Of a stretch of 32,000 nt of DNA, positions 28,006-30,701 are shown piece after piece. A program made the position numbers and the translations under genes. The notes below the pieces were generated by a model, which was not told the DNA's origin, searched no databases, and saw only the letters and a program-made list of their open reading frames with translations. Source of the stretch: Candidatus Jordarchaeales archaeon (GTDB lineage: Archaea; Asgardarchaeota; Jordiarchaeia; Jordiarchaeales; Freyrarchaeaceae); the NCBI GenBank assembly GCA_038858525.1, contig JAWCFL010000004.1:52353-84352 (forward strand), written 5' to 3'. Every line of letters starts with the position of its first letter. Position 1 is the stretch's first letter.

Positions 28006-28400
28006 CCTCGCTTATAACCACACCCTTTACCTCTAAATCCTCGTAAATTACTCTCTTTCGATAAAAATTAGCAGCATTTGAATAAAGTCATAGCTGAACT
28101 CTGCTTTCTTCTACTTTTCCAAATAGTTTAGTTGGATCCGCCGTTTTTAAATCAGGCACTGGAACTGAAGAATACCCAGCGACGTGTTTGGGCCTCACAG
28201 ATTTATTTGAACATTGTGGCACGCGCTCTGGATTACTTCAACCTCTTCGTCTCCAAAAATTCTCTAGTTAAAGAGCCGTTGGCTGCAAGCGCTTCCCTTA
28301 GCCATCTTTTCAACGTTCAATTAGTGTTAATAATCAACGAAGCAAGCTTATTTTTCCTTGAGAAGGTGGAAAGAGTGGGTGGTGAGCAGGTTAACGGGCC

Positions 28401-28414
28401 GAGAAATTTAAAAA
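28401..28414 (+). promoter_or_regulatory. BRE-TATA promoter for EF-2
   Basis: GAGAAA-TTTAAAAA about 55 nt upstream of the ATG. GAGGTGA SD at 28456-28462. Confidence 0.55.
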
Positions 28415-28467
28415 CCTAAACACCTCACACAACATAGAAGCAACGTAGAAGGTCCGAGGTGAAACAC

Positions 28468-30701
28468 ATGTCAGCAAGGATGAAGTACATTGAAGAAGTT
28501 GAAAAAATGATGCGAGTGAAGGATCAAATAAGGAACTTCGGAATAATAGCGCATGTGGATCACGGCAAAACCACTTTAAGTGACTCCCTACTGGCGGAGG
28601 CGGGTCTGCTCTCCCCGACGATCGCGGGGGAAGCAAGGGCTCTCGACTACCTCGAGGAGGAACAGAAGAGAGGCATAACCATAAAGGCGGCTAACATCTC
28701 ATTGGTGCACAAGTTCGACGGAAAGGACTACCTCATCAACTTAATCGACACGCCCGGGCACGTAGAGGACGAGCCAACCGGCTTGTTCGCGTAAACTTCA
28801 CCGGGCACGTTACTAGAGCATTAAGAGTAATCGACGGTGCAGTAGTAGTTGTGGATGCCGTCGAGGAGGTCGGCGTCCAGACGGAAACGGTTACCCGGCA
28901 GGCTTTAGCTGAGCGCGTTAGGCCTGTGTTATTCATTAATAAGATTGACCGTTTAATTCGTGAGTTGAAGCTTGATGATCGTGGCGTTCAGGAGAAGCTT
29001 AACAGAATTATTCGTGACTTTAATGGTTTGATTGACTTATATGGTGAGAAGGAATTTGCAAACAAATGGAAAGTTAACCCTGCTGAGGGTAATGTAGCTT
29101 TTGGCTCGGCTCTTCACAGGTGGGGTTTCACTGTCCCCCAGATGTTGAATTTGGGATTGAAGTTTAGCGATATTGTTGCTTATTACAGGGAAGACCGGGT
29201 GGATGAGCTCAAGAAGCTTCTTCCCGTTCATGCCGCCGTGCTGGACATGGTTGTCGACCACCTTCCTAACCCGGTTGAGGCTCAGCGATACAGGGTTCCG
29301 AAGATATGGCATGGCGACATCAACAGCGAGCTCGGTAAAGCTATGCTTGATTGCGACGAAAATGGTCCGACAATCATTTGCTTGAACAAAGTTATCGTTG
29401 ACCCCCATGCAGGTATCGTGTCAACGGGTAGAGTTTTCTCTGGAACTATTAGTGAAGGTGACCAAGTTTACCTGCTCACAGCCAAGAAAGGATACAGAGT
29501 CCAGCAAACGAGCATTTACATGGGTGCTAGGCGTGCGATTGTCGGAGCTATTCCTGCCGGCAACATTGCGGCGATGCTTGGCCTAGAGCTCGCTAGGGCT
29601 GGGGAGACCGTGGTGGCTGAGGGCCTTAAAGACGTCATGGTTCCATTCGAGAAGATCAAGTATGTTTCAGAGCCCGTCGTCACAGTGGCTATCGAGCCGA
29701 AACACCCGAAGGACCTGCCAAGGCTTGTTGAGCTAATGCAGAGGCTTTCAATTCAGGACCCAAACATTGTTGCGACAATCAATCAGGAGACAGGAGAATA
29801 CCTGCTTTCAGGTATGGGTGAGTTACACCTCGAGATCTCGCTGAAGGAGATCCAGTCCGAGGTGGACATCACAGTTTCGCCACCTATAGTTGTCTACAGA
29901 GAGACCGTTACGTCATCCTCGCCGCCCATCCTGGGTAAGAGCCCGAACAAGCATAACAGGATCTGGATCATGGTTGAACCGCTTAACGAGGAGACGATCA
30001 ACCTGCTCGCTGAAGGAGAAATTTCAGAGTACCAGGATAGAGATGAAAGAGCGCGTATTTTGAGGGAGAAAGCTGGCTGGGATGCTCACGACTCTAGGAA
30101 CCTTTGGGCTATCGATGAACACTTTAACGTCATAGTGGACAGGACACGTGGCATCCAGTACATGCGAGAGGTCAAGGATACCATGATTTCAGGTATAAAG
30201 TGGGCTTGTGAGTCTGGGCCGCTCGCCGAGGAGCCAATGAGAGGTGTCAAAGTAGTCGTTACAGACTGCCAGCTTCACGAGGACCCAGTTCACAGAGGAC
30301 CAGCACAAATTATGCCTATGAGTAGACGCGCCACATGGGGTGCCTTCCTGAGCGCGAAGCCTACTTTGCTTGAACCCATATACAAGATTCAGGTGACTGT
30401 TCCACCAGACTACATCGGGACAGTCTCAAGTATACTATCCCAGCGCAGGGGACATGTTCTAAACGTGGAGCAGCGAGGCCCACTAGCATTCATAAATGGA
30501 GAAATCCCTGTCAGAGAGAGCTTCGGGCTGGCGAACGATATGCGCTCCAGGACCTCAGGCAGAGCCTTCTGGCAGACGCAGTTCTCAAGGTGGGCTGAAG
30601 TTCCAAAATCTTTACTGGGCGAAGTAATAGCGGAAGTGCGGAAGAGGAAAGGATTAAAGCCGGAGCCACCCAAAGCGGAGGAATACATAGACACGCTTTA
30701 A
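28468..30701 (+). CDS. fusA: Archaeal elongation factor EF-2, split by a 29-nt BHB intron (exons 28468-28765 and 28795-30701; 734 aa spliced)
   Basis: [20 protein letters not shown]|DF (restored by splicing), [12 protein letters not shown], diphthamide loop [11 protein letters not shown]. (2234-29)/3 = 735 codons including the stop. Confidence 0.95.
28766..28794 (+). other. Candidate bulge-helix-bulge (EndA-type) intron in EF-2 mRNA
   Basis: ACGU/GCGU 4-bp helix, bulges AG|A and AA|A, 9-bp intron stem GGACGAGCC/GGCUUGUUC. Excision gives CAC GUA GAC UUC = HVDF. Confidence 0.85.

What the first reader, a model, noticed from the sequence alone, without database searches (positions are those of the whole stretch)
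28468..28794. Unspliced EF-2 mRNA ends at a stop inside the intron: possible splice-gated control of translation
Seen: the intron length is not a multiple of 3 and it carries the in-frame TAA, so unspliced RNA gives a 108-aa fragment (P-loop and switch I, no switch II). The outer helix is weak (C28759-C28796 mismatch, then G-U/G-C pairs, or an offset 6-bp GCCCGG/CCGGGC pairing), so this is a relaxed substrate. Inference: EF-2 output would depend on EndA/RtcB activity. That could couple elongation capacity to tRNA-processing capacity, temperature or stress, loosely like the unconventional Ire1/HAC1-XBP1 splicing that also uses a tRNA ligase.
Basis: inference. Interest (0 to 1): 0.7.

Follow-up and report, generated by a model that had tools for sequence, protein, structure and literature searches.

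The report
Spliced tRNA-type intron in EF-2
The only gene for the translation factor EF-2 in this hot-spring Asgard archaeon is broken by a 29-base tRNA-type intron that an RNA data set shows exactly removed. I found no sign that the stop codon inside it works as a regulatory switch, because similar mini-introns sit in other housekeeping genes and the closest relative has lost this one cleanly.

Summary
aEF-2 (ATG 28468) runs into an in-frame TAA (28792-94) after 108 codons. The break is a 29-nt bulge-helix-bulge (BHB) intron, 28766-28794, with a weak in-register outer helix and a stronger offset 6-bp helix.

Removing it gives exactly the sequence of the intron-less gene of a congener. One metatranscriptome contig lacks exactly these 29 nt, while the DNA contigs laid across the site keep them.

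The genome is a Jordarchaeia/Freyarchaeia (Asgard) MAG. It has one EF-2 gene, an (alpha-beta)2-type splicing endonuclease with the broad-specificity loop, and RtcB. EF-2 output therefore does depend on EndA/RtcB.

The "splice-gated control" reading has no positive support:
- The TAA is built from the last base of the central helix plus two bulge bases.
- Out-of-frame stops follow within 9 codons anyway.
- Cbf5, PCMT and GatE in this genome carry 30-31-nt introns with equally weak outer helices.
- A four-gene tree nests the intron-less species inside the intron-bearing clade, which implies precise loss.

Most likely this is a constitutively spliced, dispensable mini-intron. The scan has already noted this EF-2 intron in another genome and many such introns in coding genes in this lineage.

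The parts
28468..28765 (+). aEF-2 exon 1 (99 codons plus the first base of the Asp codon). Holds G1 AHVDHGKT, switch I and G3 DTPGH.
   Evidence: TIGR00490 profile positions 2-98.
28766..28794 (+). 29-nt BHB intron, cut after AG|A and AA|A. Removing 28767-28795 instead gives the same product.
   Evidence: Fold. Exactly these 29 nt are left out in RNA contig record 9 of run X12 and kept in DNA runs X10, X11 and X14. Absent from the G003 and G004 orthologs.
28795..30701 (+). aEF-2 exon 2 (last two bases of the Asp codon, 634 codons, stop 30699-30701). The mature protein is 734 aa.
   Evidence: TIGR00490 profile positions 99-720, 761 bits.
28760..28763 (+). Central 4-bp helix, exon side (ACGU). 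Pairs with 28789-28792 (GCGU).
   Evidence: Invariant in the 3 species.
28764..28766 (+). 5' three-nucleotide bulge AGA. Cut between 28765 and 28766.
   Evidence: The cut position is fixed by the junction GTA G|AC TTC = V-D-F, which matches the intron-less ortholog and the RNA contig.
28767..28788 (+). Inner hairpin h' (9 bp, loop AACC).
   Evidence: 92.6% of cells are paired in the 3 species, with one-sided changes G.U to A-U or G-C.
28789..28792 (+). Central helix, intron side (GCGU). Its last base, U28792, is the T of the TAA.
28792..28794 (+). In-frame TAA that ends translation of unspliced RNA after 108 codons.
   Evidence: Kept in G001 and G002, where it is part of the invariant GCGUAAA.
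28793..28795 (+). 3' bulge AAA. Cut between 28794 and 28795. In the predicted fold it is the start of an 8-nt loop, 28793-28800.
28752..28757 (+). GCCCGG, 5' arm of the offset outer helix. Pairs with CCGGGC 28801-28806. The in-register alternative is 28756-58 with 28797-99.
   Evidence: At 37 C: offset -27.8, core alone -16.1, in-register -14.1 kcal/mol.
28801..28806 (+). CCGGGC, 3' arm of the offset outer helix.

Best explanation
This is a real archaeal bulge-helix-bulge (tRNA-type) mini-intron in the sole aEF-2 gene of a Jordarchaeia/Freyarchaeia (Asgard) archaeon.

Proposed mechanism:
1. The pre-mRNA folds into a 9-bp hairpin, a 3-nt bulge AGA, a 4-bp helix, and an AAA that opens an 8-nt loop closed by the GCCCGG/CCGGGC helix.
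2. The (alpha-beta)2 splicing endonuclease cuts after AG and after AA.
3. RtcB joins the exons, giving GTA-GAC-TTC (V-D-F) and a 734-aa EF-2.

Splicing is most likely constitutive. The in-frame TAA is an incidental consequence of the BHB sequence (U of the central helix plus AA of the bulge). Ribosomes that read unspliced RNA would make a 108-aa G-domain stub that is probably non-functional.

The intron is one of a family of about 30-nt introns in housekeeping coding genes of this lineage. It is evolutionarily young and dispensable.

Shown here: the anatomy, ORF restoration, presence in 3 species, the enzymes, and one spliced RNA contig. Inferred: the cleavage chemistry, constitutive splicing, and the fate of the stub.
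For: - Anatomy and stop.
- Profile contiguity 2-98 / 99-720.
- Same 29-nt insert in G001 (MAG QC4, Candidatus Jordarchaeia) and G002; exact intron-less junction [16 protein letters not shown] in G003 and G004.
- Run X12 (metatranscriptome) has a 245-nt contig, 3 mismatches, spanning 28713-28986, that leaves out 29 nt at 28766. DNA contigs of X10 (1777 nt, 0 differences), X11 and X14 keep them.
- The junction is not in the G000 DNA and EF-2 is single copy.
- EndA alpha is 191 aa, best match A. pernix 3P1Z_B at 1.6e-48. The Tyr/His/Lys triad and the K44/R46-equivalent basic residues of the broad-specificity loop are kept. The 198-aa second EndA subunit (the presumed beta subunit) lacks the catalytic His: with PMC3241643. 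RtcB.
- Sister introns in Cbf5 (30 nt, splits the catalytic Asp codon), PCMT (31 nt) and GatE (30 nt), confirmed by contiguous Pfam coordinates. The Cbf5 and PCMT introns are kept across the order, with variable length and compensatory stem changes.
- All four introns have poor outer helices.
- Four-gene tree (((G000,G003)91/96,G001)52/89,G002)99/100 nests the intron-less G003, implying precise loss.
- No sequence conservation in the intron beyond what the BHB needs; the loop reads AACC, AGCC or GGCT.
Against: - The RNA evidence is one assembled contig from one sample. There is no DNA run of that same sample and no silent control stretch was laid. An intron-less strain (98.8% identical) is therefore not formally excluded.
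- Contigs cannot give a spliced:unspliced ratio, so 'constitutive' is inferred and not measured.
- The three-species alignment shows no double compensatory change.
- The loss inference rests on four genes from MAGs, and one internal node has only 52/89 support.
- The predicted dominance of the offset helix, and the marginal stability of the core at 75-85 C, mean splicing efficiency could in principle be temperature-sensitive.
Confidence: 0.75

Rival explanations
1. Splice-gated control. The relaxed BHB makes EF-2 mRNA a poor EndA substrate. The spliced fraction, and so the supply of elongation factor, would then track tRNA-splicing capacity, temperature or stress. The in-intron TAA would keep unspliced RNA silent.
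For: - The sole EF-2 gene needs splicing.
- The in-register outer helix is energetically unfavourable, and the core is only marginally stable at 75-85 C.
- Every tRNA needs the same enzymes in a lineage where 92-95% of tRNA genes carry introns (PMC11291895; only 11 tRNAs were found by ARAGORN).
- A 'negative regulator' role was once proposed for the cbf5 intron (PMC2738675).
Against: - No intron conservation beyond BHB needs.
- The TAA is structural and redundant.
- Equally weak outer helices in three other introns in coding genes.
- The intron is absent outside one genus and was lost precisely in the nearest relative.
- EndA has no sensor domain.
- The only RNA contig is spliced.
Confidence: 0.12
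2. Passive dampener, or ribosome-versus-EndA kinetic competition. Translation may follow transcription closely in archaea, so ribosomes could unwind the BHB 298 nt after the start codon. A fixed fraction of transcripts would yield the 108-aa stub, lowering EF-2 yield without any signal-dependent switch.
For: Half of the BHB lies in translated exon sequence and the stop lies inside the motif. This is inference from general knowledge of coupled transcription and translation in archaea.
Against: There are no data on stub peptides or on coupling in this organism. The same argument would apply to every intron in a coding gene of the lineage. It therefore explains a cost and not a function.
Confidence: 0.1
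3. Not spliced at all. The gene would be a pseudogene or an assembly artefact, or would be decoded by ribosomal bypassing or frameshifting, and the RNA-library contig would come from an intron-less strain.
For: cbf5 introns were historically confused with frameshifting (PMC2738675). No DNA run of the X12 sample was available.
Against: - look-up of sequencing runs listed 11 public runs that hold at least half of the stretch's sampled words. The DNA contigs laid from X10, X11 and X14 keep the insert, and a JGI metagenome contig carries it identically.
- Three species keep the BHB intact while 14-19% of surrounding bases differ.
- The gene is the single copy of an essential factor, with otherwise intact frames.
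- The RNA contig is 98.8% identical to the window, against 86% for the intron-less species.
Confidence: 0.03

Closest known systems
BHB intron in the cbf5 pre-mRNA of Crenarchaeota (Watanabe 2002 as cited in Yokobori 2009, PMC2738675)
   Same: A short (16-44 bp), ORF-less BHB intron inside a coding sequence, at a catalytic or conserved motif. It is removed by a heterotetrameric EndA, shows gain and precise loss among close relatives, and breaks the frame or carries a stop. A negative-regulator role was proposed but never shown.
   Different: The host gene is EF-2, the lineage is Asgard (Jordarchaeia), and the intron is much younger (3 of 4 species of one genus). This genome also has a cbf5 intron of its own, at the catalytic Asp codon.
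BHB intron in the 5' UTR of Haloferax volcanii HVO_1309 (Schwarz 2020, PMC7714728)
   Same: An mRNA substrate of the tRNA splicing endonuclease. Expression appears to need splicing.
   Different: That intron lies in the UTR, does not interrupt the reading frame, and is cut by the single endA gene product of H. volcanii. Here the coding frame itself is broken.
Ire1-dependent unconventional splicing of HAC1/XBP1 mRNA
   Same: Non-spliceosomal endonuclease cuts at stem-loop sites, followed by a tRNA ligase (RtcB in metazoa). Splicing changes the reading frame and so the protein made.
   Different: Ire1 is a stress-activated sensor nuclease, and the unspliced mRNA is a stable regulated pool. Here the nuclease is the housekeeping EndA with no sensor domain, and no condition dependence is known. 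The resemblance is in the chemistry and not in the control logic.
Non-canonical tRNA introns of Freyarchaeia/Atabeyarchaeia (PMC11291895; bioRxiv 10.64898/2026.10.13.758758)
   Same: Same lineage, same machinery, and short introns at relaxed BHB motifs that were repeatedly gained.
   Different: Those introns are in tRNA genes. Neither paper mentions introns in coding genes.

Membership tests
Archaeal BHB (EndA/RtcB-spliced) intron | [quoted passage not shown] | tested here: met
   AGA 28764-66, ACGU/GCGU, AAA 28793-95. Invariant in 3 species.
Archaeal BHB (EndA/RtcB-spliced) intron | Flanking helices: inner h' and outer h | tested here: inconclusive
   h' is a good 9-bp helix. The in-register h is a mismatch plus 3 weak pairs and costs energy. 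An offset 6-bp helix forms instead and turns the 3' bulge into an 8-nt loop, a relaxed BHL-like form.
Archaeal BHB (EndA/RtcB-spliced) intron | Excision at the bulges restores a functional gene | tested here: met
   The junction V-D-F equals the intron-less orthologs of G003 and G004. TIGR00490 positions 2-98 and 99-720.
Archaeal BHB (EndA/RtcB-spliced) intron | Splicing endonuclease of suitable specificity, and RtcB ligase, encoded | tested here: met
   A catalytic alpha subunit with the CSL K44/R46 equivalents plus a His-less beta subunit. RtcB at 601 bits.
Archaeal BHB (EndA/RtcB-spliced) intron | Spliced RNA exists in vivo | tested here: met
   One metatranscriptome contig lacks exactly 28766-28794, and the DNA contigs laid across the site keep it. 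Single sample, contig level.
Archaeal BHB (EndA/RtcB-spliced) intron | Cleavage by purified EndA at the predicted phosphates; circular intron released | not testable with these tools
   Needs an in vitro assay or circRNA-seq.
cbf5-type pre-mRNA intron (BHB intron within a coding sequence) | Short, ORF-less, inside the CDS; unspliced frame broken; patchy distribution among close relatives | tested here: met
   29 nt with a TAA in frame. Present in 3 of 4 species of the genus and absent in the other genera sampled.
Regulated unconventional splicing (Ire1/HAC1-XBP1 type) | Signal-activated, dedicated sensor nuclease | tested here: not met
   The two EndA subunits (191 and 198 aa) match only splicing-endonuclease chains over most of their length. 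Together they leave fewer than 35 N-terminal residues unmatched, so there is no room for an added domain.
Regulated unconventional splicing (Ire1/HAC1-XBP1 type) | Spliced:unspliced ratio changes with condition | not testable with these tools
   Only assembled contigs of one RNA run were available, and the cap on read laying was reached.
Regulated unconventional splicing (Ire1/HAC1-XBP1 type) | The intron is retained wherever the regulated gene occurs in the clade | tested here: not met
   Absent in G003 (nested within the clade, so lost), in G004 and in all six same-order genomes.

The most novel reading that the evidence does not exclude
In these intron-laden Asgard archaea, the supply of EF-2 would be throttled by the same EndA/RtcB capacity that matures almost every tRNA. 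The relaxed, thermally marginal BHB in EF-2 mRNA would then act as a built-in gauge that matches elongation-factor synthesis to tRNA-processing capacity or temperature. That would be an archaeal analogue of HAC1/XBP1-type control.
Probability: 0.1. Interest if true: 0.8.

Novelty: new member of a known kind. Interest (0 to 1): 0.45.

Why it matters
In the papers I could search, tRNA-type splicing of an archaeal coding sequence is confirmed only for cbf5 (PMC2738675, PMC7714728).

Here the single gene for an essential translation factor in an Asgard archaeon needs such splicing, with transcript-level support. It belongs to a set of mini-introns in housekeeping genes, some conserved across a whole order.

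This matters in three ways:
- Gene calling: EF-2, Cbf5, PCMT and GatE would all be annotated as split or frameshifted.
- It raises the question of how ribosomes and the splicing enzyme share an mRNA if, as is often assumed for archaea, translation follows transcription closely.
- It bears on how introns spread in the closest prokaryotic relatives of eukaryotes.

The specific regulatory idea would matter if true, but it currently has no positive evidence.

Tried and rejected
1. 'Stops inside' the EF-2 matches of four other Asgard genomes looked like further introns. They are only the true C-terminal stops.
2. A search for other copies of the 29-nt intron in the genome with blastn-short found only chance 10-13-mers. 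There is no sign of a mobile sequence family.
3. My first genome-wide BHB scan timed out. The vectorised one gave 4336 hits, mostly gene junctions. Only hits with long inner stems were followed up.
4. Two candidates were not confirmed. L041 is two separate genes (complete Metallophos plus a PF0610-like protein). For L036, exon 1 has no family match. The candidates at C1:44875 and C27:15239 were not tested.
5. The EF-2-only tree could not place the intron-less G003 (supports 51-55). It was replaced by a four-gene concatenate.
6. The three-species covariation test gave no double compensatory change, and the shuffles were uninformative.
7. No unspliced contig covers the intron in RNA run X12. Contigs drop rare variants, so this says nothing firm about absence of unspliced RNA.
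8. High-depth short contigs in X10 and X11 that cover only 28726-28766 continue into another organism's EF-2.
9. Literature searches for an EF-2 BHB intron, or for introns in coding genes of Jordarchaeia, found none.
10. The CCGGGCACGT direct repeat flanking the intron was considered as a target-site duplication. I rejected this because it encodes PGHV...TGHV and is present in intron-less orthologs.

Full report
**What is there.** The + strand carries an aEF-2 gene that starts at ATG 28468. After ...LIDTPGHV the frame reads EDEPTGLFA and stops at TAA 28792-94, 108 codons in all. A second frame opens as [14 protein letters not shown]... at 28797 and runs 634 codons to the stop at 30699-30701. 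The two pieces match the aEF-2 equivalog TIGR00490 at profile positions 2-98 and 99-720, so this is one gene broken by a short insert.

**Anatomy.** RNAfold and direct inspection show these elements:
- a 9-bp hairpin 28767-75/28780-88 with loop AACC
- a 3-nt bulge AGA (28764-66)
- a 4-bp helix ACGU 28760-63 / GCGU 28789-92
- AAA (28793-95)

This is the core of an archaeal bulge-helix-bulge motif. Cutting after the second bulge base on each side removes 28766-28794 (29 nt) and joins GTA G|AC TTC, which reads V-D-F. The mature protein is 734 aa.

In register it is C.C, then G.U, G.U, G-C. Adding it costs energy: -14.1 against -16.1 kcal/mol for the core alone. The offset helix GCCCGG 28752-57 / CCGGGC 28801-06 is strongly favoured at -27.8. 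The 3' cut site therefore sits at the start of an 8-nt loop, a relaxed bulge-helix-loop-like form.

One detail of the finding needs correcting. The 108-aa fragment retains the G3 motif DTPGH. The intron lies inside switch II, not before it.

**Is it real?** The genome (G000, 2.09 Mb, 92.7% complete) belongs to Candidatus Jordarchaeia, also called Freyarchaeia, an Asgard lineage from hot springs.
- Two congeners, G001 (MAG QC4) and G002, carry a 29-nt insert at the same site with the same GCGUAAA end.
- The congener G003, the sister genus G004 and all six same-order genomes read [16 protein letters not shown] without interruption. That is exactly the predicted spliced product.
- A JGI metagenome contig is identical to the window over the intron region. 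Eleven public runs hold at least half of the stretch's sampled words, and the DNA contigs laid from three of them keep the insert.
- EF-2 is single copy, and the spliced junction is absent from the genome's DNA.

**RNA evidence.** I laid four runs on 28300-29400. Metatranscriptome X12 has a 245-nt contig (record 9, 3 mismatches, spanning 28713-28986) that leaves out exactly 29 nt at 28766. The DNA contigs of X10 (1777 nt, no differences), X11 and X14 (a relative about 95% identical) keep them. The contig is 98.8% identical to the window, whereas the intron-less species G003 is only 86% identical.

The simplest reading is spliced mRNA of this species. The caveats are one sample, contig level, no matching DNA run, and no ratio.

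**Machinery.** Two EndA genes are present.
- The 191-aa protein aligns almost end to end with the catalytic alpha subunit of the Aeropyrum pernix heterotetramer (3P1Z_B, 1.6e-48). It keeps the Tyr/His/Lys triad. It also keeps Lys and a basic residue at the positions of K44 and R46 in the Crenarchaea-specific loop. That loop was shown to confer broad specificity, including bulge-helix-loop substrates (PMC3241643).
- The 198-aa protein has lost the catalytic His, as expected for a structural beta subunit.
- RtcB is present.

A relaxed substrate is therefore what this enzyme type handles.

**Context: EF-2 is not special.** ARAGORN recognises only 11 tRNAs, 8 of them with introns. This fits the report that 92-95% of Freyarchaeia tRNA genes carry introns (PMC11291895).

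A BHB-plus-ORF scan of the genome, followed by Pfam contiguity tests, confirmed three more introns in coding genes.

| Gene | Length | Pfam coordinates, exon 1 / exon 2 | Note |
|---|---|---|---|
| Cbf5 | 30 nt | DKCLD 12-57 / TruB_N 17-149 | splits the catalytic Asp codon |
| PCMT | 31 nt | 2-59 / 61-208 | |
| GatE | 30 nt | GatB_N 2-37 / 47-276 | |

All three have the same build: a 4-bp helix, 3-nt bulges, a 3' AAA, and a long hairpin. All have poor or irregular outer helices. The Cbf5 and PCMT introns sit at the same site in every genome of the order that I checked. Their lengths range from 25 to 35 nt and their stems show compensatory changes. Earlier notes of this scan list further cases in this lineage.

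**History.** A concatenate of EF-2, Cbf5, PCMT and GatE (3384 nt) gives (((G000,G003)91/96,G001)52/89,G002)99/100, with G004 and G006 outside. The intron-less G003 is nested within the intron-bearing species. One gain in the genus followed by one precise loss is therefore the most parsimonious history. The same pattern was described for cbf5 in Crenarchaeota (PMC2738675).

**The regulatory reading.** Dependence of EF-2 on EndA/RtcB is supported. A dedicated gate is not, for these reasons:
- The TAA is made of the last base of the central helix plus two bulge bases, and further stops follow within 9 codons.
- The weak outer helix is shared with the other introns in coding genes.
- Nothing in the intron is conserved beyond the BHB.
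- The nuclease has no sensor domain.
- The intron is young and was lost cleanly in the nearest relative.
- The only RNA contig is spliced.

Two points remain in favour. The thermal marginality of the core is an arguable point. The old, untested 'negative regulator' proposal for cbf5 is a precedent for the idea, not evidence for it. I put regulated gating at about 0.1, and a constitutively spliced, dispensable mini-intron at about 0.75.

**Novelty.** This is a new member of a known kind, the cbf5-type BHB intron in a coding sequence. I found no paper describing an EF-2 intron or introns in coding genes of Jordarchaeia. The scan itself has already recorded this EF-2 intron in another genome (e1-5423756).

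Noticed in passing
L038:258-287 (G000:C1:177182-177211, + strand): The cbf5 gene carries a 30-nt BHB intron that splits the catalytic Asp codon (GTL|D|PKVTG), the codon that the crenarchaeal cbf5 intron is also reported to disrupt. It is present in G001-G004 and G006 with lengths of 27-35 nt and compensatory stem changes.
   Followed up: yes
L040:502-532 (G000:C1:145116-145146, - strand): The protein-L-isoaspartate O-methyltransferase gene is split by a 31-nt BHB intron inside the conserved ISAP|H|M motif (Pfam PCMT 2-59 / 61-208). It is conserved at the same site across the order, with lengths of 25-32 nt.
   Followed up: yes
L039:341-370 (G000:C2:68773-68802, + strand): The GatE/GatB-family amidotransferase gene is split by a 30-nt BHB intron (GatB_N 2-37 / 47-276). 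In the five relatives, the exon-2 frame opens only 2 to 21 codons upstream of the match, which suggests they are interrupted too.
   Followed up: partly
L033:1474-2049 (-) and L034:1189-1785 (+): There are two splicing-endonuclease subunits. One is a catalytic alpha with the Crenarchaea-type specificity loop (K44/R46 equivalents). The other is a His-less beta with an acidic N-terminal extension rich in Glu. Together this indicates an (alpha-beta)2 enzyme in an Asgard archaeon.
   Followed up: partly
whole genome G000: ARAGORN recognises only 11 tRNA genes in a 92.7%-complete genome, 8 of them with introns. Most tRNA genes are probably hidden by multiple or non-canonical introns.
   Followed up: no
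window 28754-28763 and 28801-28810: A 10-nt direct repeat, CCGGGCACGT, brackets the intron. It encodes PGHV and TGHV and also exists in intron-less orthologs, so it predates the intron. It supplies the palindromic CCCGGG/CCGGG that forms the offset outer helix.
   Followed up: yes
G000:C3:105835-105865 and G000:C1:44875-44903: Two further hairpin-type BHB candidates of 29-31 nt were found, each with a 3' AAA or AAG bulge. One is in a hexapeptide-repeat protein gene and one is just upstream of a gene whose product begins DVAYNEVVLIELPNGETRRG (family not identified). Neither is confirmed as an intron.
   Followed up: partly
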